DNA of 59,919 nt, filler included, from Malassezia furfur (Eukaryota), in NCBI GenBank assembly GCA_052055015.1. It is 7 parts of 7 records of this genome, joined end to end, with 100 filler letters (N's around TTAATTAATTAA, not from the genome) between each part and the next. Parts side by side here need not be neighbours in the genome. Positions count along the whole stretch, not along the records: positions 17,433 to 26,002 come from JBQJIT010000455.1; 6 more parts are not named here. One strand, given 5' to 3'. This document shows positions 8,759 to 42,981 of this stretch, one piece after another; position 1 is the first letter of the stretch, and each line of letters starts with the position of its first letter. The notes beneath the pieces were generated by a model. The model was not told the DNA's origin and made no database searches. It was given only the letters and a program-made list of their open reading frames with translations. The position numbers and the translations under genes were made by a program.

Positions 8759-10835
8759 CGCGCCCTGCGGGGCTCGCGGGCATCGGGGCGCGGGGGATCG
8801 GCGCACGCGCCACGTCGGGGCGCGTAAGCGCCGTGCGTGCACCCTCCGGACGAAGGAGCGACGACCGGCGTCGTCGCTGCTCAGCAAACGAGATGCGCTG
8901 CCGCTGAGCGACCGGCACATTCTCTTGCTCGCGCCCAACCGCCGGCACGACAGCTTGCCGACCCTTGGCAGGGCCGGGAATAAGCTGTGGTGCATCGCAA
9001 GGCACCTCGTCGTCGGCCGGGCGCGTCAACGCGTCGAGAGGCACGCGTGTGACCCGTTTTAAGAAGGGCGACGGCCGTTCGTCTTCGCTCACAAGGTGCC
9101 ACTGCGGGTCCTGTGCAAGCAGGCGGTCACCGGAAGCGGGCGCCGACGCCGCACACGCCGGCTTGGTAGGCGTATCAAGCCCCGCGAGCACGCGGGTCGG
9201 CATGGGGGAGGCGGTGCGCTCGGCTTCAGGCAGGCTCTGTGCGCGCCAGATCGTCGAGGCGTCCTTCATCGAGCAATCGGACACGTCTGCGACCTTATGT
9301 TCGACGTGCCGCAGGCGCGCGAGCGCCGGCAACACGGGCGGTGCCGCGGCGCGCTCAGCCGTCTCGCCCTCGTCGGACGCCTGATCCTCCCACTCGTCGG
9401 ACGGCGGCGTATCGACGGATGCCGCGCCATCAGCATTGGGCGCCGATGCCGTCCCATCTGCCGGGTGGTCCTTGGACACACGGCGCACAGTGCGTGGTGT
9501 GAGACGCGACGGGAGCCGTCCCGGCATGGCCGGCCCGTCGCTAAGACGCCGTGACGTCTCGTCGCGCTGCGCTAGCTGAGCCTGCAGGGCGGCGATATCG
9601 GCGTCTTTCTGCGCGAGCGCATTTTGCAGCTGGACGCGTTCGCCGTGGTACCACTGCTCGTAGCGCTGCGTGAGCTCGGCCTGCATCGCCGCACACGCCT
9701 CCTCCCGCTGCTGTACCTCAGCCTGCTGCGCCTCGAGCACGCGCAAACGCTCCTCGGCGTGCACCGCAGGCCCTGTGTGTTCGAGTGCCGCCTCGCGTAC
9801 GCGCACATCTTGCTCGCGCGCCTCGATGGCGGCGGCTCGCGCCTCGAGTTGCTCGCGGTCACGCTGTACTTTGCGGTGCAGCTGCCCGAGCTCGTGCATG
9901 CGGCACGCCCATTTGATCTGGCGCACCTGGAGCAGTTGCCGCGTCGTGGGCCGGCGGCGGTGGTCGAGCTGGAGCATCGCATTGACCGTGTCCTGCAGGT
10001 CCCGCGAGTAGGCGCGCGGCAGGGGCGACACGACGCCCTGCTTGATTTTCCGCGTGAGCTCAGCCTGGTTTGAGGCGTCGAACGGCGGCGAGAGAGCACA
10101 TAGCTCGTACACGATGCACCCGAGGGCCCAAATGTCCGACTTGATGTCGTATTGCTGCCCCGATGCGAGCTCGGGGCTCATATAGTACGGGGTACCGACG
10201 TAGGTGTTGGCGAACGCCTGGGCAGCGATCTGTTTGCTCAGGCCAAAGTCGCCGAGCTTCACATTCTGGTCCACGTCCAAGAAGACATTCTCAGGCTTCA
10301 AGTCACGATGCAAGATGGCGTGGGCGGTGCCCCGCGTTGTGCCCACGGCTGTGTTGGGCGGCGCGCGGTAGTGGCACGCCTCGAGCGCCGCAGTCATCTG
10401 TGCAAAGTACGTCCACACCGTGTCTTCGGGGAGGTGTGTGCGTGTCCGGCGGCACCGCTTAATTATGGCCCCCAGGTCGCCGCCCTCGCACAGTTCCATA
10501 ACAATGTAGAGTATGCTGGCGGCGTTAGTGCCTTGTGTGCCGACCTACCCATTCTCAGTATCCACATAGCGCTCCTCGTAGCGCACCACATTGTCATGGT
10601 GTAGCGTGCGCAGGATGTTTACCTCGGAGACAATGTGCTTGCGATCGCGCTCGTTCATGCGTTCAAAGTTGAGTTCCTTGCGCGCGAACAGGGCGCCGTC
10701 CGACTTGCGCCGCACCTTGCGGATGAGTCCAAACGTGCCGCTGCCAATCACATCGAGTGCCTCATATCCCTCGAGCACGTATGCTGACGCGGCGGAGGTC
10801 CGCCGGTCCGTCGCCCCGCTCGCGGCGTTCCGCAT
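8759..10835 (-). CDS. nimA: NIMA/Nek family protein kinase, 3' truncated
   Basis: IGSGTFG, FARKELNFERM, HRDLKPEN, DFG, YVGTPYYMSPE, then coiled coil. Intron 10516-10548 (33 nt) joins ENG-ILYIVMELC. Confidence 0.92.
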
Positions 10836-13706: not shown

Positions 13707-15248
13707 CTATGAAGACGCGCCGGGCCGTAGCACACGCACCGTGCGATCAAAGCCGCAGCTCGCGACGCCGCCATCGGGCAGGACCGCGACACCCTTGATC
13801 ACCGTGTTTCCGCCACGCACCCACGCTGCAGCTGCGGCCGCGTCGCGCGCACGCTGCGACGTCGAGTCGATCGGAGACAGCTGCCCGTGCGCCGGTACAC
13901 GCGCCTTGATCTCGCCGTCGAGCCCCACGAGGCGCAGCACGCCGTCTTCGCCGGTGACCCACGCCGCGTCGCCCTCGGTGCGCCATGCATGCCGCGGGTT
14001 CGAGAATGTAGACGACGGCGCCTCGGTCCACAGCGTGAGCCGTCGGAACGACGAAAAGAGGGGCAGCACCAGCAGACGCGACAGCGTATCGCCGAGCGTG
14101 GTGCCCCCAATCGATACCGGTTGGCCCGTCGGCGACTCGCGCTGCAGCGCTGCATGGTCACCCGTCTGCGCGCACAGGTAGCGCCCTGATGGGTGGACCG
14201 ACAGGTCCAGCAACGAGTAGCCCGCATGGTGGTCGTCGGGGTCCGGATTCGTGTTGTATCTGACCGTGGTGAAGTCGGGCGCCGCGCCTTCTTCGAGATC
14301 CGGTGCGGGCAGCGCGACGTACGTCAAATCAACATGACCACGCTCGGCAAATACGAGCCACGCTCGGCGCGGGACACCCAGCTCCTGTCCGGGCGCGGGC
14401 GGAGCGCTCGGGCCGACCACAAACACCACCGCCTCGGGATTCGCCGCAAGTGTAAGCTCGTGCACCTTGGTGTACGTGAGCTCGTCCCCGTGGCGCATCG
14501 CGCGGTACACGACCACCTTCTTGTCGTACCCCGCGGACGCAAGAAACGTGCCGCACGGGCTGTGGGCAACGCGCACGACAAAGCGCGCATGCTCCTTGAG
14601 CGTCTGCACGGGCTGTGCGGTGTGCTGTGTGAGTCCCACTGCACGACTTACCAAGTCCCATACCACCACGCGGCCGTCCATCCCCGCCGATGCCACGTAC
14701 CGCGCATGCTTCGGGTTCTGCGACACATCGAGCACGGCCGAGTCATGACCGACCGCGCCGCTCGGCGTCGGCTGACTCGGCTTGTCAAGGATAGCGAGTA
14801 CCTCGCCGGTGTGCGGGTCGCTGAATACGATCAGCTTGTCTGCACCCGTCGTTGCGACGCCCTCGCGCAAGGTCCACGCCGTGCCGCTGTGCTCGGGCAC
14901 CTGCACGGCACGGATCGAGAGCAGGTTCGAGTGATGCAGGTGCTCGATGGTCTTGTCAAGCGTGTACTCGGCCGGGCCAGCAGCTCGCGCACGGGCGACA
15001 AGGTCATCAAGATCGTCTGCGTCCGTCTCCTCGAGCTGCAGGCGCGCCAGCGCTTGGGCCGACGCTATCGACTGGCTCTGCTCGACGAGCGTACGCAAGT
15101 CGCGCGCAACGTCCTTGAACTGGTCAGAGGACAGTTCATCGCGCCTAACGGCCTGCTGGAATGCCTCGAGGACATGCGTGTATCCCTGGTGTGCAAGGTA
15201 GCGCGCGACCACTTCGTCGCATACCTCGGTCAGTGCGTCTCCTGCCAT
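13707..15248 (-). CDS. LisH + WD40-repeat protein
   Basis: DEVVARYLAHQGYTHVLEAF (LisH); GHDSAVLDV..SAGMDGRVVVWD, SAGYDKKVVVY, SCGFDRTVRV. In-frame 27-nt intron 14625-14651. Confidence 0.8.
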   Translation of the reverse strand: MAGDALTEVCDEVVARYLAHQGYTHVLEAFQQAVRRDELSSDQFKDVARDLRTLVEQSQSIASAQALARLQLEETDADDLDDLVARARAAGPAEYTLDKTIEHLHHSNLLSIRAVQVPEHSGTAWTLREGVATTGADKLIVFSDPHTGEVLAILDKPSQPTPSGAVGHDSAVLDVSQNPKHARYVASAGMDGRVVVWDLVSRAVGLTQHTAQPVQTLKEHARFVVRVAHSPCGTFLASAGYDKKVVVYRAMRHGDELTYTKVHELTLAANPEAVVFVVGPSAPPAPGQELGVPRRAWLVFAERGHVDLTYVALPAPDLEEGAAPDFTTVRYNTNPDPDDHHAGYSLLDLSVHPSGRYLCAQTGDHAALQRESPTGQPVSIGGTTLGDTLSRLLVLPLFSSFRRLTLWTEAPSSTFSNPRHAWRTEGDAAWVTGEDGVLRLVGLDGEIKARVPAHGQLSPIDSTSQRARDAAAAAAWVRGGNTVIKGVAVLPDGGVASCGFDRTVRVLRPGASS

Positions 15249-17332: not shown

Positions 17333-17432
17333 NNNNNNNNNNNNNNNNNNNNNNNNNNNNNNNNNNNNNNNNNNNNTTAATTAATTAANNNNNNNNNNNN
17401 NNNNNNNNNNNNNNNNNNNNNNNNNNNNNNNN

Positions 17433-18312: not shown

Positions 18313-20152
18313 CTACGGCAAGGTCACGGCAAATTGGCGCACGACGCCGTCTGCGCCGGAGGTCGCGAGCGTCGCGCCGTCGAGCCACGCGACGCCCGTC
18401 GCGCCGCCGGCGTGTGCGTTCTTGAACGCCGCCTGTTTCATAGGACGCGCCACCGACCACACGTAGACGTGCGTGTCGAGCGACGCACTTGCGCAGTGCT
18501 CCCCGGACGCGGACCACGCCAGCGCCGCAATGCGCGCCGAGTGGAACACCCACTGCGTGAGACGCACCGATAGCTGCGCCACATCGTACACCAGAATCTT
18601 GCCGGACGACTCACCCGCGGCCAGCAGCTTGCCGTCCGGCGAAAACGAGAGCGCCGTAATGGGGCTCCGCCCGTTGGTCAGCGTCGCGACTTCGTCCCAG
18701 TTGCGCGTGTACAGGCGCACCTGCGCGTCGGCCGTGCCGATCGCCACGAGCGCATCGCCTGCGCTCGTCGCCGCAATCGCCGTCGGGTCGTGCGCGCCGA
18801 GCTGCGCCGCGGAGCGGTGCGTGACGGTCGTGCCCTCGACGACATCCACCCCGCGCTCGCTCACCACATACTGCGCCGCACCACACATCGCCAAGCCACG
18901 CGGCTGTGCAGTGAGGGCGACGCGCGGCGCATCGCGCGCAATGCGACCGACCGTATCGTCGAGGGCAATCGCATACATCTCGCCGTCGTCGCGCTCGGCG
19001 CCGACGCCCACGACGCTCGGCGCACCGCTCGCTTGCGGCAGCGAGCTTGCCCCACCATCGCGACGGTAGGTATAGACGCGGCCGTCGTACGACCCGACAC
19101 CGACCATGTCCGTCTGCGCAGCGTACACCAGACTCGACACACCCTTGGTCGGGCCCACGAGCGGCGCGCGCAGCTGCAGCGTGCCAGCGGCCACATCGAC
19201 ATCCAGCACGTACAGCACACCCTCAAGACCGATGCTGACCACGGCACCGGGCTGCGCCCAGACCACGCCGACCTGCTGCGCGTCCACCTTGTTGGCCGCC
19301 TGCGTCTTGGCGTCGAACGAGGCGACGAGCTCGGCGTCCGCAGTGCGCCACACCTTGACGAGGCCATCGGCACCTGCCGTGACGACATGCGCACTGTCCG
19401 GTGCAAAACGCACCGCATACACCGTGCCTGTATGGGCGTTGGCGACCGTTTGCTTCGTTTCGCCCGACACGCCGTCGTACAGCAGCAGCTGCCCATCCGA
19501 CCCGACCGAGGCGAACGTCATCCCATCCTTGGCGTACGCCACATCCTGCACGAATCGCGTATGGCCGGACAGCGTCTTGTTAAACTTGAACGGGACCCCG
19601 GTGAAAAAGACGAGGTGCGTATCGTCGCCGGCCGTCACCGCCCGGAAGGGGCGCTGGTGCCGGATCGCGACGGCGTTCATCGGCTTGCTGTGACCGCTGA
19701 TCTCGCCCACACTCGAGCCCGAGTCAAACATGAACGCATGCGCAAACCGCTCGCGGCCTTCGCCGACCACAATGATCCGCTTGCTCTCGCCGTCCCAGGC
19801 AAGGTCGCTCACTTTGCCATTCAGCGCCTGCGTCTGCAGCTTGAGGATGCGCTCGCCCGAGGCCAAATCCCACACACGCACCGAGCCCGAGATGTCGGCA
19901 CTCGCCGCATAGTACCCGCTGGGGCTGATGCGTGCCACGGTTACGGGCTGCGTGTGCTCCGCATACACGAGAGTGGCCCGCGGATCCTGTCGGTCAGTGC
20001 GCGGGCCAACGTACGTCAAGGTCACGGAAGAACACGGTACGGCCCTGGGAGTACACAAGTTTCTTTCCATCGGGACTCGCGTCGAGCTTCGTGCTCGACC
20101 CGCGCGTCACGCTCGGGTTCGCGGCATACACCGCCGTCGGCTGCAACGACAT
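18313..20152 (-). CDS. AIP1: Actin-interacting protein 1 (WDR1), WD40 repeats
   Basis: AANPSVTRG start, ISPSGYYAASADISGSVRVWD, RHQRPFRAVTAGDD..GVPFKF. Intron 19987-20014 (28 nt). Confidence 0.93.
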
Positions 20153-20193: not shown

Positions 20194-21215
20194 ATGACGA
20201 GCTTGCTCCCGGTGCTGCGCCAGGCGCACAACGACAATCCGTGGGACGACGCAACACTGCATGCGCTACGCGTTGACGGTACCCAAATTGGGTTCATCCC
20301 GCCGAACGTGATGGAGGTGGTCAAGGCGTATCTCGCGGATCGCCCACACACCCACCTGCGTATCCAGGATGGCGCACTGACCTTCGCACCCGAGGCAATC
20401 GCCGCGCAGCGCACCGATGAGATGAACCAGATGGCCGTGTGGATGCGCGACACGAAAAAGTTTCCGGATCCGCTGGATGGTAGGCACCCCTGGCTCACAA
20501 CAGGCTGGCGCGACGAACAGTACGCCGTGTATGGCCCAGGCGACGGTGAAAATCCGAGCACCGTTGTCTTCACACTGGAGCGGTCTGCATGTGCCTTATT
20601 CGGCATCGCAACGTTCGGCGTGCACCTCACCGTACGTCCCATGCCCTCACTCAGGCATACACGCCCGACGGCCGTATTTGGGTCCCGCGCCGCTCCCGAA
20701 CCAAGCAGACATGGCCAGGCTACCTGGACAACTCAGTCGCTGGCGGAATCACGGCGGGCGACTCGCCGCGTGCCTCTATGGTGCGCGAGTGCTTCGAGGA
20801 GGCCGGCTTGTCGCGCGACCAAGTCGAGCCATACCTCAAGGTACGCCACGCGCAGCCACTGACACGCTGCAGCAAACGGGCCACATCACCTACTTCTACA
20901 AAACGTCGCTCGGATGGCGGCAGCCTGAGATGCAGTACACGTACGACTTGGCCCTGCCCTCGGACGCGATCCAACTTCGCCCCGAGGACGGCGAGGCCGA
21001 GTCGTTCGAGCTGCTCGACGTACCCAATGTGCTGCAGCGCATGCACAAAGGCGAGTTCAAAGCGAACTGCTGTTTGGGTAGGTGGTACTGCGCACTGACA
21101 TGCAGTCCTGGCCGACTTTTTCATCCGGCATGGGTACCTCACTGCAGAGAACGATGTGCATTACGCAGAGATCGTCACAATGCTGCACACCAACCTGCGC
21201 CTTCCCACGCCATAG
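20194..21215 (+). CDS. Nudix hydrolase, YJR142W/Tnr3-like
   Basis: [73 protein letters not shown] after splicing 20480-20503, 20632-20654, 20841-20872 and 21078-21105. Confidence 0.88.
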
Positions 21216-21367: not shown

Positions 21368-21591
21368 TTAGATGTTAAGCTTGGTGCGGCGCCAGTGACG
21401 GCGGTTCTTGTTGTACTGGATCTTCTTGTCGGTCTTCATGCGGAACCAGTTGGGGATGGGGCTAACGGTCAGTCGGGACGCGCGCAACATACCGGTTCTG
21501 GCGCTGAGCCTTCGCCAGCTTAAGCTTCGTGCGGAGAGACTTGTTGGAGGGCTGCAGTGTAAGCACAGTGCCGCGAAGGCATACACACCAT
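21368..21591 (-). CDS. RPL39: 60S ribosomal protein L39 (eL39)
   Basis: ATG-only first exon; introns 21552-21588 and 21462-21492 give [51 protein letters not shown]. Confidence 0.96.
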
Positions 21592-22709: not shown

Positions 22710-24792
22710 CTAGGTCGTGGAAAGATAGGCACCCAATTTCCCCAGCAGTTCATTCTTTTTTCCACTCGTCGGCAGGCCGTAATGCGCACAGGCGGCGCGC
22801 AGGTCGGCGACCAGAAGACGGCCGAGGATACCCTCCTTGTGCATCTCGCGCAACTCTTTTTCTCGGGCGGGGTCAAACGGCTGTGTCTTGGGCTCAGACT
22901 TGCGTACGGTCTGGACGGGTGCCGGTGCAGTGCGCTCGTCTGCCTCCATGGCCTCATTCCAAGTCTGGATCTGAGTGCCAGCGCGCTGCGGTGAATGCGT
23001 TAACGTACCTCATCAATCAGCGTATAGTCGGGAAGAATAGTATCTTGGTAAGAAGGAACGGGCGATCCAAATGCGAGTGCCATGAGCATGCTGTAGTGAT
23101 GGTGTAATGCAGGGTTCGTAAAAGCATCTGGGTTCAACGGCGCCTTGCGCAGGAAGCTGTCGATAATCCGACCGGCGGCCTCGACCTCCTCGGCATTTGC
23201 TAAGTTAAGTTGGGAACATACCACTCTCTGTCTTGACCTGAGGTGCGTCCCGGATGTCGTCCGCATACGGCAGGACGATCATGTTCATACCGGGCGGCAC
23301 GAGTTGGTTCCCCTCCTCGTCAACCTCCTCAGCTTGCGGAAGGATGGCAACAAAGGCGGGAATAACGTTTTCGCGCGGCATGTACAGCCCCAGAGCATAT
23401 TTGTTCTTCGACAGCATTGACTGGAGCAGGGCGGCAAAAACACGCTTGCTCCCTGGCTGGTCCAAGTCGGATGGATACAAAAAGTAAGCATGCTTGATAT
23501 TTTCGAGAAAGTGCAGTGTTGAACGGTCCTTGAATCCAAGCAGCTTGACCCCGGGAATACACCCAAATGTACGCAGTTTCTTGACCTCGTCGTCGGACAA
23601 CACCACTTGTGCCTGGTCGGTTGGCCCTTCGCTGATGGGATACGCATTGACAATGTCGGTCGGCTGTACACGCTCGCCCGTCTGGGCATCATAAAAGTGC
23701 TGATAGGCCATAACCTCGTGTAGATCATCGGGATTCTCCTGCCCGTAGGATGACACGCGCACGGGCATGTCTTTGGTCGCCTCAGAGATGAGGACGTACC
23801 CTTTAACATGGATCCGCCAATGCGACGCGCGTTGCGCCTTAGCGTGCTTGTCTTCGTTCTGTTTCGAGAGTGGACCTAAATCCATCATCAGGTCAAAGAT
23901 GACACGCTTGGGCATTTCGCGGCCGCCCATCTGCTCGTCGAGTTCTTGGAATTTTAACGTCGAATCCCATGCGCGGCGCTTTGAGCCATTCTGGTCCTGC
24001 ATTTGTCGCAGACGCCACGGCCGGAGAGCATCATCCACAAGCCCATCGTCATAAGCACCGACGATCTCTGCGTAAAACACATTCACACGGAAGGTGTGCC
24101 GCTGTGATGACATGAAGAACGGCTCCATATCCACGCCACGGCGGTACATATCCTTCATGCGATCAATGCACGCCTTTTGTGCAAGCTGTTTCTCCTTTCC
24201 TGGTTGTGGGTCGTCCTGGTTGGTAATGTAAAAGATTCGGCGTGAGCCGGCTTTGGCCCTGCATCAGTGACGCCGACATACGCAGAGCTGAGCAGGTGGA
24301 GCGCATTGGAGAAGACATGCTCGACGGGGATCTGTGTTGAGGCCGGAGCAAAGCGCGTCGTAAGCGTACTGGGATCCTTTTCCGCGGCTGGGTAAGTGTG
24401 ACACGTACCTGCCACGATCTGTTGCAGCTCGTAAGTGTTGGGAACGTTGACCTGTTGCGCCTTGATGTACTCGACTGTGTGCGGCTTGAAACCCGAGCGG
24501 GTTTCCGTCACCATGCGCGACTCCATCTTGGATAAGCAGGATACGTACCGTGTTCCACAGGAGGACACCGACGTGATCCTTAGGAGAGCTCACCAATTTC
24601 ATCTCCATCAGACGCACGGCCGCACGGAGCGCGACCAGCAAAGGCGCCTCTGCCTCGCCCGATGTATCGTGCATCGTTGCGCCACAGTCAATGGCAAATA
24701 GGACTACATCGCGGTGCGCATAATTCTGGATCAGTCGTACCACGCACCTCCCAAGGCACTGCATGCGCCTCGTCCCCCGCCCCGGCCTCCAT
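22710..24792 (-). CDS. KU70: Ku70 DNA end-binding protein
   Basis: VVLFAIDC (vWA), RRIFYITNQDDP, LLGFKD, LPYADDIR, NPALHHHY, C-terminal SAP domain. Six introns: 24726-24747, 24527-24548, 24388-24408, 24259-24281, 23200-23221, 22986-23008 (21-23 nt). Confidence 0.93.
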
Positions 24793-24883: not shown

Positions 24884-25811
24884 ATGGAATTCCCGCCGCA
24901 GCACGAGGCATCTGCTGTGTACGCGCAGCCGGGTGTGGTTGAACACAATGAGGCGGTGCATGAGACAGAGCCTACGCAGCCTTCTCTACCTTCCGCACCC
25001 ACAGAGGTCAACCCTGAAATCTCCGCAACGCACGCAACCGTCGCCGCGCCTCTAGAGCCAGGCGAGGAGGCAGAGCCTGCGAGCGAAGAGACAGCGGGTG
25101 CACCAGCTGCTAATGTACCGCAGGCACCTAAGCGTGCACCGCGTCCGAGCTTGCCGCCACAAAAAGGAACTACGGTATTCCCTTTGGCACGCATTGCCAA
25201 GATTGTCAAAGTAGGTCCGCGAGCGCTGACCACAGGCCGACAGTGCCGTGGACATTTGCAGCAAAGAGGCAACCTTTCTGATCAGTGCTGCAACAGTATG
25301 TGTTGAGAGTAACACAGGAATTGTTCGTCAAAAAGTTTGTCGAAGAAGGCTGTATTAATGCGCGCATGGATAAGCGCAAGATGGTCCGCTACGATGACAT
25401 GGGTACGTGTTTTCTTTCGCTAACGCAGCCAAAGCCGCACAGCAAAATGAGTACCTTGACTTCCTGCGGGACGTTGTGCCGATGCCCATGCCGCTGTCGG
25501 CGGCCATGCAGCAACGCGCACAAATGGCCCAGGCAGGAGAGGAACAAGAGGCGGTCGACGCAAGCCCTACTGAGTCCAGCAAGCCTGTCGACGAACACGA
25601 GGCGGAGAGCGATGCAGATATGGATGCTGAAGATGTGCCGTCGCCGTCGCCCCTGCCACCAACCTCTGCCAAGGCGGAGGGGTCGCATGAATGGTCGCCG
25701 ACACCGTCTGCCGCGGTAGCCTCCAGCACTAACCTTACGCCGTCGGAATCGGGCGGCACACCCGTGTTGCCAACGCCTCAAGAAGAAACCACAACGCCTA
25801 TGGATCTGTAG
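24884..25811 (+). CDS. Histone-fold (NF-YC-like) protein, Dpb3/POLE4-like
   Basis: Spliced FPLARIAKIVKADSAVDICSKEATFLISAATELFVKKF..RKMVRYDDMAKAAQQNEYLDFL. Introns 25211-25235, 25296-25317, 25403-25428. Confidence 0.85.
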
Positions 25812-26758: not shown

Positions 26759-28670
26759 ATGGTCAAGGCGGAGCGCACGGTGAAGACCGAGGGCGCGCCG
26801 GCGCCGACGGGCTACCGCGACATCCCGCTGTACTCGGCAGACACACGGAGCGTCACGACGCACCTGATGAAGTTTGCACACCACAACCGCGTCGACCCGA
26901 ACAATACGGAGCAGTTCATCCCCCCGGTGAAGCTGAACCGCAAGATGCCGCTGCGCGTCAAGCAGGCGCCCGCACAGCCCGGCGACGTGGTCGTCGACAA
27001 GTGGGGCAAGCCCGTGCTCACCGGCGAGGGCAAGCCGCTGCGGTGGCCGGGCCCCGACGACGACCTCGAGGCGCTGCGCCCCTACCTCGAGCTGGACAAG
27101 AAGGTGTACGTCGCACGACTCACGCAGCGAGGACGAGAACGACATGGCGCCGGGCTCCGGCCACCTCCCCCGCGGGCGCCTGTTCAAGAAGCGCGTGCGC
27201 GAGGTGCACAAGAGCGCGAACGCCGCGCGGCGCACGCGCAACGAAGAGTTCTTCCCGTGGGTGCTGGAGGACTTTGAGACGTCCAACGACTGGGAGTCCT
27301 CGCGGAACCCCGCGGCGAACAGCATCCAGGCGCTCGAGGCGTACTACATCATGGAGACGGAGCGCCGCGCGCGCGCCGCGGCCGCCGGCGTCGACGCACA
27401 CCCCGTCAAGGCCGAGGTCAAGGCCGAGGCCGGGCCGGTTGCGCCGGCGCACGCGCCGTGGGTCGGCCAGCTCGAGGGCGAGTCGGACGAGAACTCGATG
27501 TCGCACCATGTGCTGTTCGTGTTCGACGAGCGCAACGCGGGCGGCTTCAAGGTCGTGCCGATCCGCCGGCAGTACAAGTTTATGCAGTCGCAGCGCCCGG
27601 TGCTGGACAGCGACGCGGTCGAGGAGGAATTTGCGCGGTACCAGCGCTCCTCGGAGCCGGAGCGCCTCGCGCTGCGTGCGCGGCTCCAGAGCGGCACCAA
27701 GGGCGGTGCGTCCACTGGCGCGCCGCGGCGCTTCCCCACGCTGGCCCTGCCGCAGGGCCCGTCGCTGGGGTGGAGCAGCAGCCAGCGGCTCGTCGCTGTG
27801 CGCGGCGAGGACCGCGAGCGCGGCGGCGAGGACGATGCGTTTGTGGTGCCGAAGCAGGAGACGACCTACGACGAGCTCGACTTTGAGGAGTCGTTCGCGG
27901 ACGACGAGGAGCGCCCCGACACGGTGCTCGAGGAGGACCAGGAGGCGAAGGAGCTCGAGGAGCGCCTCAAGCGCGAGATGGTCGCCGACCACGTCGACGA
28001 CGAAGTCACGATCAAGCGCGACCCCGACGAGGTGGACGACGCGATGATGATCAACCGCCGCAGCGGCGCCGACGACGTGCTCGGCGGCACCGTCCACGGC
28101 CGCCACGACGACGCACAGCTCACCGGCACCGGGCGGCAGATGCGCAAGATCATGAAGGCGCTCAGCCGCCGCGAGGGCAACGACGTGTACGACAGCGACG
28201 AGGACGCCAAGAACCCGTACGCGAGCGACGAGTCCGACGACGAGCAGGACCTCGACGTGCTGCACCCCGAGCGCGCGATCCTCGAGGCGCGCGAAGAGCG
28301 CGCGCGGCAGGAGCGACTCGCCCGCGAGGCGCAGGCGCCGCCGCCCGCGCCCGAGACGCCGCGCGCCGCGACGCCGGACGACTCGCTGAAGCGCAAGAGC
28401 GAAGTGCGCCGCGACGACACGCCGAAACGCGCCAAGCTCGGCGAGAAGGCGCGTGGGTCGTCGCCGGCGCGCACCCTGTCGCCGCTCGAGGCGGAGCTGG
28501 CGCAGCTCGTGCGCGACGGCACTGTGCGCAGCACCGCCGAGCTTGTGCAGCACTTCCGGCAGCGGCTCAAGGCGGACGCTTCGCTCAAGGAGCAGCTCAG
28601 TGCGGCGGTCAAGAAGATTGCCTATATGGACAAGAAGAGCAACCGCCTGAAGCTCAAGGAGGGGTTCTAA
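26759..28670 (+). CDS. TFG1: TFIIF large subunit (Tfg1/RAP74)
   Basis: THLMKF, PVKLNRK, PWVLEDFE, WVGQLEG, FKVVPIRRQYKF, ELDFEESFADDEE, C-terminal winged helix. 22-nt intron 27106-27127 joins the two ORF frames. Confidence 0.85.
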
Positions 28671-30915: not shown

Positions 30916-32147
30916 ATGGTGCGTGAGAGGCTGACCCAGAGCGACCCAGTGATCCCGTACGTGGCCCACTGACGCAGCCCGCCGCCGCCGCGCGAGAAAA
31001 AGACGCTCGAGGAGCAGATGCGCTCGTTCGACGAGGTGCCGCTGTTCATGCGCAACCTGCCGTCCGGCGGCACCGAGGAGTCGAACACGGCGCTCGACGC
31101 CCTCCAGGCGCTTGCGTACGAGGGGCACCCCGACGACGCCGCCAAGAACTTCAAGGAGCAGGGCAACGAGTACTTCCGCGCAAAGCGGTACCGTGAGGCG
31201 ATCGGCTTCTACCGGCAGGGCCTCGACGCGAAGCCGGGCAGCAAGGAGCTGCTCGAGTCGCTGTACCTGAACTGTGCGGCGTGCAACCTCGAGCTGCGTA
31301 CGTCTGCGCGACTCACCCAGAAAACTACGGACGCGCGCTCCACGACACCCGCAACGCGATGCTCGTCAACCCCCGCTCGCTCAAGGCGCTGTACCGCGCG
31401 ACAAAAGCGTTCCTCGCGCTCGACCGCCTCGACGACGCGCGCGGCGCATGCGACCTCGCGGACGAGTTTGGCGGCGGCGCCGACTTTGCGCCGCTGCGCG
31501 CCAAGGTCGACGAGCGCGCGGCGGTGCTCGAGCGGCGTGCGAAGGAGCGCACGGAGCGCGAGCGGCGCGCCAAGCTGCTTGCCGAGGCCGTGCGCATGGC
31601 GTGCATTGCGCGCGGTCTGTGGGTCGCGCGGAGCACCACACAGGACGACACACACGCGCCGCACTTTGACCCCGCGGCGCTGCCCGCGTACGCGTCGCCC
31701 GACCTGCCGCTGCTCGGCAGCACGACGTGGCGCGCGCCCGATCCGATCCGCACGCCGCTGCTCTTCCCCGTGGTGCTGCTGTACCCCGAGCACGGGCAGT
31801 CGGACCTCATTGCCGAGTTCCACGAGGACACCACGATCGGGCAGCACCTCGACGCCATGTTCCCGCCCGAGGCGCGCGGACAGCTGCCGTGGGACCCGGC
31901 GGGCGCGTACGTCGCGCCGAACCTGTCGGCGATCGCCGTGACGCACCAGGGCCGCGTGCTGCGTGTGGGCCGCAAACTATCCCTACGCGAGTTTATGGAC
32001 CAGGCGGCGACGACGCCGCCCGACGGCAACCCCGAGCACCGCGACGGGCTCGTGCTGAACAACGGCACACTCACGCTCGCCGTCTTCCCCAAGCACAGCG
32101 AGGCGGAGCGCACGTGGGTCGACGCCGCGAAGCGGCGCGCCACGTGA
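30916..32147 (+). CDS. CNS1: Hsp70/Hsp90 TPR co-chaperone Cns1/TTC4
   Basis: VPLFM, LDALQALAYEG, AKNFKEQGNEYF, LELQNYG, FPVVLLYPEHGQSD. Introns 30919-30939, 30957-30977, 31298-31320. Confidence 0.92.
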
Positions 32148-32161: not shown

Positions 32162-33541
32162 ATGACGGAGGACGCGTCGGCGGACGCGCATGGCGCGGCG
32201 CCGGTCCATAGCTCGTCGAGCGAGGCAGACATGTACACCCACCGCGATGAGGAGGTGCGTCACGCACTCACACAGTCCATCGAGCGGCTCGAGGAGGAGA
32301 TCGATGCGCTGACGGCGTCCGTCGACGGCCTCGACGCCTACCACATCGTCGACAAGCTCGGCGAGGGCACGTTCTCGTCCGTGTACAAGGCGATCGACGT
32401 GCACCACGACATGTACCGCAACGAGCCGTGGGCCAAGAGCGACACGCCGCGCATCGTGCCGCGTGCGCCGAAGCCCGGCGCGGTGTATGTCGCGCTGAAG
32501 CGCATCTACGTCACGTCGAGCACCGCGCGCATCGTGAACGAGCTCGAGATCATGGAGATGCTGCGGTACGTGCAACGCTCACGCAGCGGGCGCCCGTTCC
32601 TCGCGTACCTCATCACGGCGTTCCGCAGCGCGGACCAGGTCATTGCGGTGATGCCGTACAGTCGGCACACCGAGTTCCGCGACTACTACCGGATCATGCC
32701 GCTGTCGGACCTGCCGTGCTACTTCTACTGCCTGTTTTCCGCGCTCGCGGCGATGCACGAGCTCGGCATCCTGCACCGCGACGTGAAGCCGGCCAACTTT
32801 CTGTACGACCCCCGCACCGGCTTCGGCACGCTGTGCGACTTCGGCCTCGCGGAGCGCCTCGAGCCGAGCGAATGGCGCAACAAGTGCCACCACACGTGCC
32901 CCACGCCCGAGCACCCGCACGGCGAGCAGCGCGTGAACCACGCAACCTACTCGACGCACCTCCTCCCGGGCGGCGCCCTGGCACGTGACGAGACCAAAGG
33001 CGCACGGCCCATGGCGCCGCCGCACCGCGTCGGCTACCTGCGCAGCGACCCGCGCCCCGGCGTGCGCGCGAACCGCGCGGGGACGCGCGGCTTCCGTGCG
33101 CCCGAGGTGCTGTTCAAGTGCATGGACCAGACGCCCGCGGTGGACATCTGGTCGGCGGGCATCATCCTCCTGTCGTTCCTGCTGAAGCGCTTCCCGCTGT
33201 TCAACGCGAACGACGACACCGAGGCGCTCCTCGAGCTCGCGACCATCTTTGGCGCGCGCCGCATGGAGCAGTGCGCGATGCTGCACAACCGCACCTTTGC
33301 GTCGAATCTGCCGACCGTCGACCACGCGGGGCGCCGCATCCCCGAGCTCATCCAGCACGTGCGCCCGGAGCTCTTTGAGCCGCCCGCGGACCACCCCGAC
33401 CCCGGCGAGTACCGTAGGCAGGTGCAGCAGGTCGTGCATCTCGCGAACGTGTGCCTATACCTCGACTGCACACGCCGCTGGACCGCGCGCCGCCTGCTGC
33501 GCCACGCCTTCTTCCAGGACCTGGTGGAGGCGACGCCATAG
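32162..33541 (+). CDS. CDC7: Cdc7 (DDK) kinase
   Basis: LGEGTFSSVYKA, VALKRIYVTSS, HRDVKPANF, RANRAGTRGFRAPEVLFKC. In-frame 21-nt intron 32566-32586. Confidence 0.95.
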   Translation: MTEDASADAHGAAPVHSSSSEADMYTHRDEEVRHALTQSIERLEEEIDALTASVDGLDAYHIVDKLGEGTFSSVYKAIDVHHDMYRNEPWAKSDTPRIVPRAPKPGAVYVALKRIYVTSSTARIVNELEIMEMLRYVQRSRSGRPFLAYLITAFRSADQVIAVMPYSRHTEFRDYYRIMPLSDLPCYFYCLFSALAAMHELGILHRDVKPANFLYDPRTGFGTLCDFGLAERLEPSEWRNKCHHTCPTPEHPHGEQRVNHATYSTHLLPGGALARDETKGARPMAPPHRVGYLRSDPRPGVRANRAGTRGFRAPEVLFKCMDQTPAVDIWSAGIILLSFLLKRFPLFNANDDTEALLELATIFGARRMEQCAMLHNRTFASNLPTVDHAGRRIPELIQHVRPELFEPPADHPDPGEYRRQVQQVVHLANVCLYLDCTRRWTARRLLRHAFFQDLVEATP

Positions 33542-34596: not shown

Positions 34597-35632
34597 CACG
34601 AGGGGGCTCGGCGTGAGGTTCGCCGGGCGCGCGGGCGGCGGCGCTTCGGCGGCACTCGCCAGCTGCACGTCGGCCGGCACCACCTGCAGCGCCATGAACC
34701 AGCGCACCTTGTGCGCGTTCGCGACATGCGCCAGCGACACAAACCGCGTCACGGGCGGCACCCGCGGCGCAGGCAGCGCCGCAAACGGCGGGTTCTCGTA
34801 CGGCTCACGCTCCCAAAACACGCCGCACGCACGCGCGTCCGCGTCCATACGCAGGCGGCGCGCATCCACCTCGGCGGACGTCGGCGCACTTGCAAAGTAG
34901 TAGCGCGGACGCACCGCCTCGGCCAGGCGCGCGAGCGCCTCGACGCCCCACGGCTCCGCCTCGGGGGGGTGTGCAACGGACGACAGCTGCGTGATACGCT
35001 TCGGCCACGCATTCGTCAGCAAGAAGTCGACCGCGGCACGCTTCTCGAGGCGTGCCGCATCCTCCGCCGCGCGCTCGGCGTACGCGGCGAGCGCCGCTGC
35101 GTGCGCACGCGCCGCCTGCAAACTATCGGCCTCGACGTCGAGCGGCGGCGGCGCATCCACCAGCGCAAGGCGGGGGTCGCTCAGCAGCGTGTCTACCGGA
35201 TCCAGCGCATCCAGCGTGCCGTCGCCTTTCTCCGCGCCGCTCCCGCCGCAGAACGCAATGCGCAGGCCGTCGACCTCGGCCAGGCCAACGCGGCCCAGGT
35301 AAAAGAGGTTCGGCGCCAGCTTCTGCACGCCGTCGGCCTCTTGCACGTCCACGCCGTCGGGCAGTGCACGCGTCCCATGGTAAAAGTAGGTCGGCACCGC
35401 GACTGGGTCAGCGTTGCGCGCAACATACGGGGCAGCTCGCCTGCGAGCAATTTTCGCGCGTCGTCGTCCAACTCCGCGCCAAACAGGTCGCCGACGACAA
35501 ACGCCGCGGCAAACGGCCCGTGTTTCGCCTGGATCGCACCGAGCTTACTCGACAGCTCGGTGCAGCGGCCATCGGGCGCGCCCAGGATCAGCCTGCGTCA
35601 GACGCATCCACGTACACTTTGCGTGCTGCCAT
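34597..35632 (-). CDS. CWF19L1/Drn1-like protein, N-terminal pseudo-metallophosphatase, 3' truncated
   Basis: KVLILG, KHGPFAAAFVVGDLF, PTYF, NLFYLG, VDFLLT..WP, RPRYYF, FWEREPY, TRFVSLA. Introns 35593-35615, 35403-35428. Confidence 0.85.
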
Positions 35633-35680: not shown

Positions 35681-35987
35681 ATGGCGTCGATCGAGGTGAC
35701 GCCGTCGCGGGTCGCGCCACGCGGCCCGGACCCTGCTCGGTAGGTCGCGCAACTGACCCAGTGGCGTGTACTTCAAGCTGGCCTTTTTCTCCATCGCGCT
35801 GTTTGTCGCGCCAATCACCGCGTACTATTATGCCAAGGACCGCTTCCTGGGCGGCGACGCTGTGTACGCCGGCGGCCTCGCGGCCGTCGTCGCCAACATC
35901 GTGCTCTTTGGCTACATCATTGTGGCGTGCCTAGAAGACGACGGGTCCAAGGCCAAGGCCAAGGCGGCCGAGAAGAAGAGCGAATAG
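35681..35987 (+). CDS. VMA21: V-ATPase assembly factor Vma21
   Basis: Two TM helices, AAVVANIVLFGYIIVA, KKSE di-lysine end. 22-nt intron 35740-35761. Confidence 0.9.
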
Positions 35988-35999: not shown

Positions 36000-36670
36000 C
36001 TACAAGACCACACCGTCGCTCACGGCGGGGTGCCGCGGCGGCCGCGGCGGCGGTACGCGTCCGCCCGGCACAGGCACCGAGCGTGGCGCCGGAATCGGCA
36101 GCACGAGCCGGAACGAGTCTTTGCCTGCGTGAGACACACCCACGCACCATTCAGATAGAAGCGGTACAGGCGCTTTTCGCGTAGAAATCCTAAGCGCTCG
36201 TACAGACGCAGCGCCGCGGCATTGTCGACCTCGGTCTCGAGCACAATCTCGGCGGCACCACCCTGCACCATATCGTCGACGGCCCGGCGGATGAGCTGTG
36301 CGCCTATGCCGTGCCCACGCCAGCGTGGGTCGACACTCAGCATCGCAATGTAGCCCCGCCAGAGCCGCGCGCCGCGCAAGTGCCGGTCGAGGCGGCCGAT
36401 GATCACACCGACTGCTGTTTCGTTGTCATTTTCGTCGTGCACATATGCCTGGGTCAGCGAACCGGCGTACGAGGAAGCAGAGATGCGGCCTGGGTGAGAA
36501 GGGCACGTACCATTGGTGTAGAAAGTAGCGGTAGGTATAGATATTGTACGGCTCGCTGGCGTCAGAGCGCCGGCCTACCTTAGCTCGGTCTCGATGAGCC
36601 GCATGACATCGGGGAGCGACGGTGCGCCGTCATACACGCGCAGCGACACCTGCGGATGCGTCGTCGTCAT
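36000..36670 (-). CDS. MAK3: NatC N-terminal acetyltransferase Mak3/Naa30
   Basis: [50 protein letters not shown] after splicing 36556-36578, 36490-36510, 36449-36470 and 36125-36147. Confidence 0.93.
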
Positions 36671-38152: not shown

Positions 38153-39198
38153 ATGACACAGGCTTCGCGGCCGGAGCTACCGGCCGTGCACCATGCATGG
38201 AGCTTGCACTATCTCTGGCTGTGGATCAAGGTGAACTTTTTGCGCCTGATTGCACACTACACGGTGCGTTCCACCGACCACCTGCGCCCGCAAGTCGGCG
38301 ACGACGTGCGGGTCGAGAAGATCCACTTTCCGTCGCGCGATAAGGACCGCTCGATCATTGCCTACGTGTACACGCCCGTGAACCTTCCGCCTGGGCCGCA
38401 GGCCGTGCACATCAATGTGCACGGTGGTGGATTCGGTATGTGATTGCTCTGACCGCAGCGGTGCCTGCCTTCTATGGCAACTCGCGCTACTTCTGCTACC
38501 TGGTCGCGTCGCAGCTCAACTGTGTGGTGATCGACACCGACTACCGCAAGGCGCCCGAGTACCCATACCCGTTCCCGACGCGCGACGTGGAGGACTGCCT
38601 TGTGTGGGTGCAGTCGCTCCCGAATCGCTTTGACCGGAACCTGATCACCATTAGCGGCTTTAGTGCGGGTGCCAACCTGGCGCTCTCGACGGCGAACAAG
38701 GTGGGCCCCGACGTGGTCAAGGCGGTCGTCGCCTACTACCCGCCGACGGACGCCACCACCGAGACCGCCGCACTCGGCCTGCGCGAGCACCCTGACCCGC
38801 CCGAGTCGGCGCGCAGCGGTGCACACCTCGTGTCGTGGGTGTTTGTGACGTTTTTCCAGTCGTATCTGCCGCCGCACGTCAGCGCGGCGATCCCCGAGGT
38901 GAGCGTGCTGTTCCTGCCCCTCGAGCGGTACCCCGACCACCTCTTCTTTGCGGCAGGCCGCTGCGATGTGCTGCACGACAACTCGAGCGATTTCTACCAA
39001 AAGGTGCAGGCCGAGGGGCGCCCCGCGCAGCGCGAGCGCACGCGCTTCATCAGCGTGCCGAACGAGGACCATGCGTTCGACGAGCAGCCGACGTGTCCCG
39101 AGTCGGTCGCGTGGCGCGACAAGATCTACGAGGCGGGCGTCGCGACGATCCGCGCCGCCCAGGACGAGGAGCGCGCAAAGCTGCGTGGTACGGCGTAA
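38153..39198 (+). CDS. Alpha/beta hydrolase, HSL-family esterase/lipase, copy 2
   Basis: HGGGF, DYRKAPEYPYP, GFSAGANL, CDVL, DHAF. 23-nt intron 38436-38458. Confidence 0.88.

Positions 39199-40677: not shown

Positions 40678-42981
<2,304 letters not shown>

What the first reader, a model, noticed from the sequence alone, without database searches (positions are those of the whole stretch)
22986..24747. Ultra-short spliceosomal introns with an apparent floor of 21 nt
Seen: about 51 distinct introns called by hand, 34 of them 21-25 nt and none shorter than 21. KU70 has six of 21-23 nt and MAK3 four of 21-23 nt. Typical form: GTACGTcgcgcaCTAACcCAG (26598-26618), with donor, branch site and acceptor nearly abutting, no polypyrimidine tract, and about 15 nt from donor to branch A. 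Most are required to restore conserved motifs. The duplicated NNF1 copies keep intron positions and splice signals while the interiors drift. Established: Malassezia introns are known to be short; this size range is otherwise typical of microsporidia, ciliates and nucleomorphs. Inference: canonical simultaneous U1/U2 binding is sterically difficult, suggesting a modified spliceosome.
Basis: partly seen in the sequence, partly recalled or inferred. Interest (0 to 1): 0.72.

Follow-up and report, generated by a model that had tools for sequence, protein, structure and literature searches.

The report
Known ultra-short introns in Malassezia
The genes in this Malassezia yeast DNA are interrupted by genuine but tiny introns, mostly 21-25 bases and none shorter than 21 here; very short Malassezia introns are already published, so this is a clean example, not a discovery.

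Summary
KU70 (minus strand, 22710-24792) has six GT-AG introns of 22, 22, 21, 23, 22 and 23 nt. Removing them gives a 649-aa Ku70 collinear with its homologues. MAK3 has four introns of 21-23 nt, also supported by homology.

My own gene models plus hand curation give 54 introns in the window. Thirty-six are 21-25 nt, the median is 23 and none is under 21. The two sub-21 candidates (15 and 18 nt) proved to be coding sequence. The intron motif occurs 53 times against 9.1 in shuffles. The excess starts sharply at 21 nt, which equals a branch A at +16 plus 5 further bases.

The window comes from a high-GC Malassezia. Very short introns in this genus are in print: a mean of 30 bp with 99% RNA-seq support in M. 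sympodialis. The phenomenon is therefore known.

I found no paper stating the 21-nt floor.

New side points:
- Orthologous KU70 introns are 46 and 108 nt in a lower-GC relative.
- Public gene calls truncate at these introns or read through them.

Earlier scan notes covered tiny introns in other organisms (e.g. microsporidia, Cryptosporidium, giant viruses), not in Malassezia.

The parts
22710..24792 (-). KU70 coding region (ATG at 24792, stop ends at 22710), 649 aa after removing six introns
   Evidence: Ku70 Pfam domains appear in the homologues and the alignment is collinear, including the C-terminal SAP-like end
24726..24747 (-). KU70 intron 1, 22 nt
   Evidence: retention gives a stop at aa 34; the junction is collinear with close homologues
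24527..24548 (-). KU70 intron 2, 22 nt, AAG acceptor, CTTAT branch
   Evidence: introns at the same position in L001 (46 nt) and L005 (22 nt)
24388..24408 (-). KU70 intron 3, 21 nt, a multiple of 3 and open if retained
   Evidence: retention would add 7 aa absent from 11 of 11 homologues; a 108-nt intron sits at the same position in L001
24259..24281 (-). KU70 intron 4, 23 nt
23200..23221 (-). KU70 intron 5, 22 nt
22986..23008 (-). KU70 intron 6, 23 nt
   Evidence: a 24-nt intron sits at the same position in L005
36000..36670 (-). MAK3/Naa30 (GNAT) coding region, 194 aa after removing four introns
36556..36578 (-). MAK3 intron 1, 23 nt
   Evidence: junction collinear with the homologues that cover it
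36490..36510 (-). MAK3 intron 2, 21 nt
36449..36470 (-). MAK3 intron 3, 22 nt
36125..36147 (-). MAK3 intron 4, 23 nt
   Evidence: the public gene call P0284 reads through it
4695..4718 (+). intron, 24 nt (MgtE-like gene)
   Evidence: multiple of 3 with an in-frame stop
4827..4851 (+). intron, 25 nt (MgtE-like gene)
   Evidence: not a multiple of 3; needed to keep the gene model open
10516..10548 (-). intron, 33 nt (protein kinase)
   Evidence: in-frame stop; the Pkinase profile runs 1-70 and then 73-259 across it
14625..14651 (-). intron, 27 nt (WD40 gene)
   Evidence: multiple of 3, open if retained; signals only, 24.5 bits
15628..15652 (+). intron, 25 nt (PTPA)
   Evidence: not a multiple of 3; the PTPA profile runs 1-45 and then 49-293 across it
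19987..20014 (-). intron, 28 nt (AIP1/WDR1)
   Evidence: not a multiple of 3; the public ORF call P0014 reads through it
20632..20654 (+). intron, 23 nt (NUDIX gene)
   Evidence: not a multiple of 3
20841..20872 (+). intron, 32 nt (NUDIX gene)
   Evidence: not a multiple of 3
21078..21105 (+). intron, 28 nt (NUDIX gene)
   Evidence: not a multiple of 3
21552..21584 (-). intron, 33 nt (RPL39-like gene)
   Evidence: gene model only
21462..21492 (-). intron, 31 nt (RPL39-like gene)
   Evidence: not a multiple of 3; gene model
25211..25235 (+). intron, 25 nt (histone-fold gene)
   Evidence: not a multiple of 3; gene model
25296..25317 (+). intron, 22 nt (histone-fold gene), weak GTAAC branch
   Evidence: not a multiple of 3; gene model; the weakest branch signal in the list
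25403..25428 (+). intron, 26 nt (histone-fold gene)
   Evidence: not a multiple of 3; gene model
   Evidence: signals only, 29.2 bits; multiple of 3 and open if retained; Pfam not decisive
27106..27127 (+). intron, 22 nt
   Evidence: not a multiple of 3
30919..30939 (+). intron, 21 nt (TPR gene)
   Evidence: signals only; multiple of 3 and open if retained
30957..30977 (+). intron, 21 nt (TPR gene)
   Evidence: in-frame stop if retained
31298..31320 (+). intron, 23 nt (TPR gene)
   Evidence: the reading frame changes across it
32255..32275 (+). intron, 21 nt (kinase 2)
   Evidence: signals only, 21.9 bits
32566..32586 (+). intron, 21 nt (kinase 2)
   Evidence: signals only, 27.4 bits; Pfam not decisive
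35593..35615 (-). intron, 23 nt
   Evidence: not a multiple of 3
35403..35428 (-). intron, 26 nt
   Evidence: not a multiple of 3
35740..35761 (+). intron, 22 nt (VMA21)
   Evidence: not a multiple of 3
38436..38458 (+). intron, 23 nt (alpha/beta hydrolase)
   Evidence: not a multiple of 3
40497..40519 (-). intron, 23 nt (ALG10)
   Evidence: not a multiple of 3
39482..39505 (-). intron, 24 nt (ALG10)
   Evidence: 28.0 bits; the Pfam profile spacing fits removal
44898..44934 (-). intron, 37 nt (RPL29-like gene, copy a)
   Evidence: gene model; the paralogue has the same length
45175..45195 (+). NNF1 copy a, intron 1, 21 nt
   Evidence: in-frame stop; the paralogue keeps position and length
45293..45314 (+). 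NNF1 copy a, intron 2, 22 nt
   Evidence: not a multiple of 3
45543..45569 (+). NNF1 copy a, intron 3, 27 nt
   Evidence: the acceptor is shared with copy b; multiple of 3 and open if retained
45675..45704 (+). NNF1 copy a, intron 4, 30 nt
   Evidence: 27.4 bits
49639..49675 (+). intron, 37 nt (RPL29-like gene, copy b)
   Evidence: paralogue of 44898-44934
49377..49397 (-). NNF1 copy b, intron 1, 21 nt
   Evidence: in-frame stop
49258..49279 (-). NNF1 copy b, intron 2, 22 nt
   Evidence: not a multiple of 3
49003..49029 (-). NNF1 copy b, intron 3, 27 nt
48868..48897 (-). NNF1 copy b, intron 4, 30 nt
51671..51696 (-). intron, 26 nt
   Evidence: not a multiple of 3; gene model
53190..53212 (-). 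intron, 23 nt (EXO70)
   Evidence: not a multiple of 3
53107..53133 (-). intron, 27 nt (EXO70)
   Evidence: signals only, 19.8 bits
55239..55263 (+). intron, 25 nt (tyrosine phosphatase)
   Evidence: not a multiple of 3
56539..56564 (-). intron, 26 nt
   Evidence: not a multiple of 3
56452..56474 (-). intron, 23 nt
   Evidence: not a multiple of 3
56255..56277 (-). intron, 23 nt
   Evidence: not a multiple of 3
1..1124 (-). Cus1/SF3b145 (partial, runs off the window), the only splicing factor in the window
   Evidence: Pfam DUF382 (E 9.8e-54) and PSP (E 6.6e-19); nothing unusual seen

Best explanation
These are ordinary U2-type (GT-AG) nuclear spliceosomal introns of a high-GC Malassezia yeast, shrunk almost to their recognition signals. 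Each consists of four parts:
- a 5' splice site hexamer (GTACGT in 27 of 54, otherwise GTRNGY);
- a linker of at least 4 nt;
- a CTNAC-type branch sequence with its A at +16 or later;
- at least 5 more bases ending in CAG.

The smallest form is therefore 16 + 5 = 21 nt, which leaves no room for a polypyrimidine tract.

Shown here: the sequence signals, the length distribution, the even spread over the three length classes mod 3, and restoration of conserved proteins for 10 introns.

Inferred: that the introns are removed by the spliceosome through intron definition, and that the floor reflects the shortest RNA path the catalytic core tolerates. On that reading the 5' splice site pairs with U6, the branch sequence pairs with U2, and a short tail must reach the active site.

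Also inferred: the shortness is a lineage-specific end point of genome compaction. Orthologous KU70 introns in a lower-GC relative are 46 and 108 nt and have pyrimidine-rich tails.
For: - KU70: retaining any one of the five introns whose length is not a multiple of 3 gives an early stop. The spliced 649-aa protein is collinear with the five closest homologues at every junction they cover. None of 11 homologues has the 7 residues that retaining the 21-nt intron would add.
- MAK3: four of four junctions are collinear with the Naa30 homologues that cover them.
- Pfam profiles run on across introns in a kinase, PTPA and ALG10.
- In the curated set of 54, all have GT and AG ends, 50 end in CAG, and 42 of 54 have CTGAC, CTCAC or CTTAC at the branch. 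The A position is at least 16 in 54 of 54, and 5 or more bases follow the A in 54 of 54. Lengths mod 3 are 19/18/17.
- The motif occurs 53 times against 9.1 +/- 3.1 in 100 shuffles. The excess is confined to 21 nt and above.
- The gene finder allowed introns of 12 nt and more but placed none of 13, 14, 16, 17, 19 or 20 nt.
- Both of its sub-21 calls are coding. VRLTQ aligns to residues in all 21 AIP1 sequences compared, and PYLPTLS in 26 of 26 ALG10 homologues.
- Paralogous NNF1 introns keep position and length while their interiors diverge.
- Orthologous introns are 46 and 108 nt in L001.
- Published: M. sympodialis has 5350 introns of mean 30 bp, 99% supported by RNA-seq (PMC5389616, Table 2). 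The M. restricta annotation needed minimum intron settings of 20 and then 15 (PMC6473144).
Against: - I saw no RNA evidence for this genome.
- Only 10 of the 54 introns are checked by homology.
- Nineteen of the 54 are multiples of 3, and most of those stay open if retained. Four of the nine 21-nt introns rest on signals alone.
- My gene finder is home-made and sensitive to its parameters. It mis-modelled KU70 at one setting. I dropped 14 of its 57 calls by judgement, including two undecided frame-changing ones of 35 and 80 nt.
- The structural reading of the floor is reasoning from general spliceosome knowledge and was not tested.
- A sample of 54 introns cannot exclude rare shorter ones elsewhere in the genome.
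Confidence: 0.85

Rival explanations
1. At 21-25 nt, U1 and U2 snRNPs cannot sit on one intron together. This lineage would therefore have a changed spliceosome or assembly route. Examples would be loss or change of U2AF/Mud2, SF1, Prp40-type bridging or SF3b contacts, or release of U1 before U2 binds.
For: - There is no room for a polypyrimidine tract, since 33 of 54 introns have only 5 bases after the branch A.
- Only about 4 nt separate the 5' splice site hexamer from the branch-pairing region in the nine 21-nt introns.
- The same KU70 introns in a lower-GC relative are 46 and 108 nt with pyrimidine-rich tails, so something allowed the tract to be lost here.
- There are human precedents for special factor needs of short introns. 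I saw only the titles and abstract starts of these papers: PMC8363638 and PMC6692369.
Against: - Nothing was tested. No genome is held, the window has no snRNA gene (0 Rfam hits), and no query for U2AF or SF1 was available.
- Cus1/SF3b145 in the window looks ordinary.
- The splice signals are standard fungal ones.
- Even shorter introns are reported in nucleomorphs, at 18-20 bp (PMC5014332).
Confidence: 0.2
2. The 21-nt floor is a sampling effect. Genome-wide, this species has some functional introns of 18-20 nt that this 60-kb window happens to lack.
For: - The window yields only 54 introns.
- Annotators of M. restricta set the minimum intron length to 15 (PMC6473144), which suggests they expected shorter ones.
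- Nucleomorph introns of 18-20 bp exist (PMC5014332).
Against:
- Both sub-21 calls were refuted by homology.
- In a related species (L005/L006), a 20-nt candidate breaks the frame and the true intron is 24 nt. An apparent 21-nt intron there is better read as 24 nt.
Confidence: 0.3
3. The segments are not introns but assembly errors, frameshifted pseudogenes or sites of translational recoding.
For: No RNA was seen for this genome.
Against: - All 54 segments share GT...CTNAC...YAG signals, about six times the shuffle expectation.
- Their lengths spread evenly mod 3.
- Removal restores conserved proteins exactly.
- Paralogues and orthologues keep the positions.
- The same class is RNA-seq-supported in M. 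sympodialis (PMC5389616).
Confidence: 0.02

Closest known systems
Nuclear introns of Malassezia sympodialis and M. restricta (PMC5389616; PMC6473144; review PMC7426719)
   Same: Same genus-level feature: compact genomes whose genes contain 'very short introns'. M. sympodialis has 5350 introns of mean 30 bp, 99% with RNA-seq support. The M. restricta annotation needed minimum intron settings of 20 and then 15.
   Different: In this window the median is 23 nt and the mean 24.9 nt, which is shorter than the published mean of 30 bp. In the passages I read and the six searches that included 'Malassezia', I found no statement of a 21-nt floor, of the 16 + 5 layout, or of length differences between species. 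Supplementary Figure S8 of PMC5389616, the intron size distribution, is an image, and I could read only its legend.
Ultra-short introns of ciliates (Paramecium, about 25 nt) and chlorarachniophyte nucleomorphs (18-20 bp) (PMC5014332; listing of 10.1101/2021.08.05.455221)
   Same: Spliceosomal GT-AG introns reduced to about 20-25 nt, with a narrow length peak. Length itself has been discussed as part of their recognition.
   Different: Those are AT-rich. In Paramecium, introns that are multiples of 3 and lack stops are said to be depleted (recalled, not read here). The introns here are about 60% GC and carry a strong CTNAC branch motif. Multiples of 3 are not depleted (19 of 54). The host is a culturable, transformable basidiomycete yeast.
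Short introns of Encephalitozoon microsporidia and of myxozoans/dicyemids (cited in PMC13644364)
   Same: Introns under 30 bp in reduced genomes. Myxobolid medians are 22-27 bp.
   Different: Microsporidia keep only a few dozen introns and have a reduced spliceosome. This window carries about 0.9 introns per kb of DNA. PMC13644364 (2026) lists the known taxa with introns under 30 bp, and 'Malassezia' has 0 occurrences in its text.

Membership tests
U2-type (GT-AG) spliceosomal introns | GT at the 5' end and AG at the 3' end | tested here: met
   54 of 54 curated introns; 50 CAG, 3 TAG, 1 AAG
U2-type (GT-AG) spliceosomal introns | Extended 5' splice site able to pair with U1/U6 (GTRNGT) | tested here: met
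   46 of 54 have GT[AG]NGT, and the other 8 end in GC or GG. The pairing itself is inferred.
U2-type (GT-AG) spliceosomal introns | Branch sequence (CTNAY-type) shortly upstream of the 3' splice site | tested here: met
   53 of 54 have YTNAY and one has GTAAC. The A lies at +16 to +29, with 5-10 bases after it. Use of that A as the branch point was not shown.
U2-type (GT-AG) spliceosomal introns | Removal restores the reading frame or the conserved protein | tested here: met
   10 of 10 introns tested by homology pass (KU70 six, MAK3 four). 35 of 54 are not multiples of 3 and lie in gene models that are open only when they are removed. The remaining multiples of 3 are only partly supported.
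U2-type (GT-AG) spliceosomal introns | Absent from mature mRNA; lariat formed | not testable with these tools
The protein database holds only unspliced ORF calls for this species.
Malassezia nuclear genome | Closest relatives of the encoded proteins are Malassezia; genus-typical genes present | tested here: met
   The best named hits for Ku70, AIP1 and MAK3 are Malassezia species at 53-79% identity. A Mala s 1-like domain scores E 7.7e-58 at 57006-58052. The species was not determined.
Organisms with a reduced or altered spliceosome (microsporidia, nucleomorphs, C. merolae type) | Loss or divergence of snRNAs or core splicing proteins | not testable with these tools
   No genome is held and the window has 0 Rfam hits. 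Only Cus1 is visible, and it looks ordinary.

The most novel reading that the evidence does not exclude
This high-GC Malassezia lineage has driven nearly all of its introns to a hard physical limit of 21 nt, made up of a branch A at +16 plus a 5-nt tail. In doing so it has dispensed with the polypyrimidine tract that orthologous introns of a lower-GC congener still carry. Splicing here would then have to use a U2AF-independent route in which U1 and U2 do not occupy the intron together. Malassezia would be the first genetically tractable yeast model for minimal-intron splicing. The intron field seems not to have noticed it: a 2026 survey of introns under 30 bp does not mention the genus.
Probability: 0.2. 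Interest if true: 0.65.

Novelty: already known. Interest (0 to 1): 0.3.

Why it matters
The main consequence is practical. Introns this short defeat ORF-based and default gene callers.
- The database gene calls for this very genome give a 140-aa MAK3 that lacks three exons and reads through a 23-nt intron. They also give an AIP1 that reads through a 28-nt intron.
- A deposited M. yamatoensis MAK3 (121 aa) looks truncated in the same way.
- Read-through tends to leave '...LTQ' peptides, from CTGACGCAG or CTCACGCAG.

Malassezia proteomes used for allergen, drug-target or comparative work may therefore carry many such errors.

There is also a conceptual point. A culturable, transformable yeast with a median intron of about 23 nt would be a convenient system for asking what sets the minimum intron length. 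The basic fact of very short introns in this genus is already published.

Tried and rejected
- Whole genome: none is held, so I could make no genome-wide histogram and no search for snRNAs or splicing factors.
- Rfam on the window found 0 families.
- First gene-finder runs: iterative retraining of the splice models ran away to 319 'introns' and was discarded. A run allowing introns up to 300 nt produced artefactual introns of 130-289 nt.
- From the run I used (57 introns) I dropped 14:
  - 4179-4255, 4377-4400 and 4444-4550, which fuse eIF3a to the next gene;
  - 5669-5713, 12197-12229, 18904-18951, 20674-20736, 42158-42265, 44013-44066 and 43702-43767, which are multiples of 3, open if retained, and weak or long;
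  - 7979-8058 (80 nt) and 15225-15259 (35 nt), which change the frame but remain undecided;
  - 18553-18567 (15 nt) and 39886-39903 (18 nt), refuted by homology.
- I corrected two acceptors, 22986 and 45569, and added 11 introns.
- A fixed 120-nt flank frame test was too crude where introns are closely spaced, and I do not rely on it.
- Pfam on unspliced read-through ORFs did not settle the 21-nt introns in the Vps51-N and kinase-2 genes.
- A PDB search with the AIP1 fragment was swamped by generic WD40 hits.
- L005 candidates of 20 nt and 16 nt were rejected. The first breaks the KU70 frame and the true intron is 24 nt. The second lies on an apparently non-coding strand.
- Searches for papers on a Malassezia spliceosome or an intron floor found none.
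Full report
**What is at the coordinates**

On the minus strand, 22710-24792 encodes Ku70. Six short GT...AG segments interrupt it:
- 24726-24747 (22 nt)
- 24527-24548 (22 nt)
- 24388-24408 (21 nt)
- 24259-24281 (23 nt)
- 23200-23221 (22 nt)
- 22986-23008 (23 nt)

Removing all six gives one open frame of 649 aa. Keeping any one of the five introns whose length is not a multiple of 3 gives a stop at aa 34, 187, 190, 499 or 560.

A search with the large exon found 11 Ku70 proteins. The best named hits are Malassezia sp. CBS 17886 and M. vespertilionis, at 64-65% identity. In a joint alignment, the spliced protein has no insertion or deletion against the five closest homologues (P0001-P0005) at any junction they cover. 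None of the 11 has the 7 residues that retaining the 21-nt intron would add. Two caveats apply. One distant homologue (P0010) has a one-residue gap next to junction 1. Junction 5 lies beside a segment whose length varies among the distant homologues.

**What the window is**

GC content is about 57-72% in 2-kb steps. Pfam run on single exons finds Cus1/SF3b145, eIF3a, BCS1, PTPA, AIP1, KU70, a GNAT (MAK3), ALG10, two Nnf1 copies, Exo70 and a Mala s 1-like allergen-family gene. The best named hits for three proteins are Malassezia species at 53-79% identity. Proteins 99-100% identical exist only as unnamed ORF calls. I conclude that this is nuclear DNA of a high-GC Malassezia. The species was not determined.

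**Window-wide catalogue**

I wrote a small gene finder. It combines a 3-periodic coding model with donor, branch and acceptor weight matrices built from 34 strict seeds. It allows introns from 12 to 110 nt and uses no length prior.

It returned 36 genes and 57 introns. I dropped 14 of these, corrected two acceptors and added 11 introns from a more permissive run and from direct reading. The dropped rows are listed under Tried and rejected.

The curated set has 54 introns. The lengths are:

| Length (nt) | 21 | 22 | 23 | 24 | 25 | 26 | 27 | 28 | 30 | 31 | 32 | 33 | 37 |
|---|---|---|---|---|---|---|---|---|---|---|---|---|---|
| Count | 9 | 9 | 12 | 2 | 4 | 4 | 4 | 2 | 2 | 1 | 1 | 2 | 2 |

Thirty-six of the 54 are 21-25 nt and none is under 21. 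The median is 23 and the mean 24.9.

Lengths mod 3 split 19/18/17, as expected for real introns. The upper tail is uncertain, because I removed ten candidates of 45-108 nt as unsupported. Two frame-changing candidates of 35 and 80 nt remain undecided.

**Is it more than chance?**

A donor+branch+YAG motif occurs 53 times in the window on both strands. In 100 dinucleotide-preserving shuffles it occurs 9.1 +/- 3.1 times, with a maximum of 19. At 21-23 nt the count is 29 against 1.83 expected. At 14-20 nt it is 6 against 2.84.

Those six short matches break down as follows:
- Four are alternative donors nested inside longer introns that share the acceptor (36125 twice, 53107 twice).
- One is the AIP1 segment discussed below.
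- One (26864-26881, minus strand) lies antisense to a plus-strand gene.

**Testing the floor**

The gene finder placed only two introns under 21 nt. Both were multiples of 3 and stay open if retained.

The first is 18553-18567 (15 nt, 20.2 bits). It encodes VRLTQ in AIP1/WDR1. That stretch aligns to residues in all 21 AIP1 sequences I aligned, from Malassezia to Ustilago, Rhizoctonia and beyond.

The second is 39886-39903 (18 nt, 13.3 bits). It lies in the ALG10 motif LPYLPTLS, which has aligned residues in 26 of 26 homologues.

Both are therefore coding sequence. None of the 35 introns whose length is not a multiple of 3 is 13, 14, 16, 17, 19 or 20 nt long, although those lengths were allowed. 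The floor holds for this window, but it rests on 54 introns only.

**Anatomy**

- Donors: GTACGT 27, GTAGGT 7, GTATGT 6, GTGCGT 5, others 9.
- Acceptors: CAG 50, TAG 3, AAG 1.
- Branch motifs: CTGAC 23, CTCAC 14, CTTAC 5, others 12.
- Branch A position: +16 (10 introns), +17 (12), +18 (12), later (20).
- Bases after the A: 5 (33 introns), 6 (7), 7-10 (14).

All nine 21-nt introns have the A at +16 followed by 5 bases. The minimum therefore breaks down as a 6-nt donor, a 4-nt linker, a 7-nt branch-pairing region, one further base and the final CAG. No room is left for a polypyrimidine tract. Mean intron GC is 0.60.

MAK3 (36000-36670, minus strand) has four introns of 23, 21, 22 and 23 nt. They give a 194-aa protein collinear with Naa30/MAK3 homologues at all four junctions. 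Examples are [24 protein letters not shown] and RFYLNG|KDSFRLVL.

The two Nnf1 genes lie in an inverted duplication, 43082-47270 against 51458-47305, at 85-87% identity. Their four introns keep position and length (21, 22, 27, 30 nt). The exons are 86.1% identical (491 of 570) and the introns 75% (75 of 100), with no gaps. With about 0.4 indel events expected per 100 nt from the rest of the duplication, the absence of intron indels is not significant.

**Related genomes**

A metagenome scan returned 37 loci. L001-L008 carry KU70 at about 60% protein identity, in DNA of GC 0.55 (L001), 0.59-0.60 (L002, L003) and 0.62 (L005-L008).
- L002 has none of the six window introns.
- L001 has introns at two of the six positions. 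They are 46 nt (the window has 22) and 108 nt (the window has 21), and both have pyrimidine-rich 3' parts.
- L005 has introns at positions 2 (22 nt) and 6 (24 nt), plus two of its own (24 and 25 nt).

In L006, my gene finder gives 22 supported introns with a median of 25.5 nt. Its single '21-nt' case is better read as 24 nt, because that version is collinear with the homologues.

So both intron length and intron position vary within the genus. The window's lineage is at the short extreme. This rests on one gene and a few loci.

**What is known**

- Zhu et al. 2017 (PMC5389616; passages and Table 2 read) report 5350 introns in M. sympodialis with a mean size of 30 bp, 99% supported by RNA-seq. 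Their Figure S8 shows the size distribution, but it is an image and I could read only its legend.
- The M. restricta re-annotation used minimum intron lengths of 20 and then 15 (PMC6473144, one passage).
- A review says that all haploid Malassezia have genes 'containing very short introns' (PMC7426719, one passage).
- Lim et al. 2021 treat M. sympodialis as intron-poor (PMC8476143, passages).
- A 2026 paper on introns under 30 bp lists ciliates, microsporidia and dicyemids, and 'Malassezia' has 0 occurrences in its text (PMC13644364, passages).
- Nucleomorph introns are 18-20 bp (PMC5014332, passage).

None of my nine literature searches returned a paper on a Malassezia intron floor or a Malassezia spliceosome. 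In one search, none of the 15 papers listed (of 18 found) contains the word Malassezia. The library lacks most subscription journals, so this is weak evidence of absence.

**The 'modified spliceosome' idea**

I could not test it. No genome is held. The window has no Rfam hit. No RNA tool is offered. I had no session-derived query for U2AF, SF1 or other factors. Cus1 in the window has normal DUF382 and PSP domains.

The loss of pyrimidine-rich tails relative to L001 is the one observation that points towards relaxed or altered 3' splice-site recognition. I put the idea at about 0.2.

**Verdict**

The phenomenon is already known for the genus. The exact floor and layout, the between-species length differences and the annotation errors are useful details, not a new kind of system.

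Noticed in passing
window 43082-47270 and 47305-51458: An inverted segmental duplication with arms of about 4.2 kb at 85-87% identity. It carries FYVE, RPL29-like and Nnf1 genes, a 300-aa gene and a small gene in both copies.
   Followed up: partly
window 36000-36670 (MAK3) and 18313-20152 (AIP1); proteins P0284, P0014, P0286: Database gene calls for this genome are wrong at tiny introns. P0284 (140 aa) lacks the first three MAK3 exons and reads through the 23-nt intron. P0014 reads through the 28-nt AIP1 intron. The deposited M. yamatoensis MAK3 (P0286, 121 aa) looks truncated in the same way. Read-through leaves '...LTQ' peptides.
   Followed up: partly
L001 about 9622-9667 and 9786-9893; window 24527-24548 and 24388-24408: Orthologous KU70 introns are 46 and 108 nt, with pyrimidine-rich tails, in a GC-0.55 relative. 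In the window they are 22 and 21 nt. L002 lacks all six window introns, and L005 has two introns of its own. Both length and position turn over within the genus.
   Followed up: partly
protein P0015 (AIP1 homologue, 73% identity): It carries a 7-residue insert, VRGMLTQ, next to the VRLTQ site. This looks like a read-through 21-nt intron in another species.
   Followed up: no
window 18553-18567 (minus strand): A 15-nt coding segment (VRLTQ in AIP1) mimics a complete mini-intron at 20.2 bits, yet it is conserved as protein. Splice-like signals alone are evidently not enough at this length.
   Followed up: yes
whole window, 54 curated introns: Introns whose length is a multiple of 3 are not depleted (19 of 54). 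In my crude flank test only 5 of these 19 showed a stop within the intron if retained. This differs from what I recall for Paramecium. The sample is small.
   Followed up: partly
window 57003-58052 (minus strand): A gene for a Mala s 1-like allergen-family protein (PF22701, E 7.7e-58), without introns in my model.
   Followed up: no
window 8659-8758, 17333-17432, 26003-26102, 34497-34596, 42982-43081, 51459-51558: Six pairs of 44-nt N runs at regular spacing of about 8.5 kb. They look like masking and not assembly gaps. Three gene models run into them.
   Followed up: no
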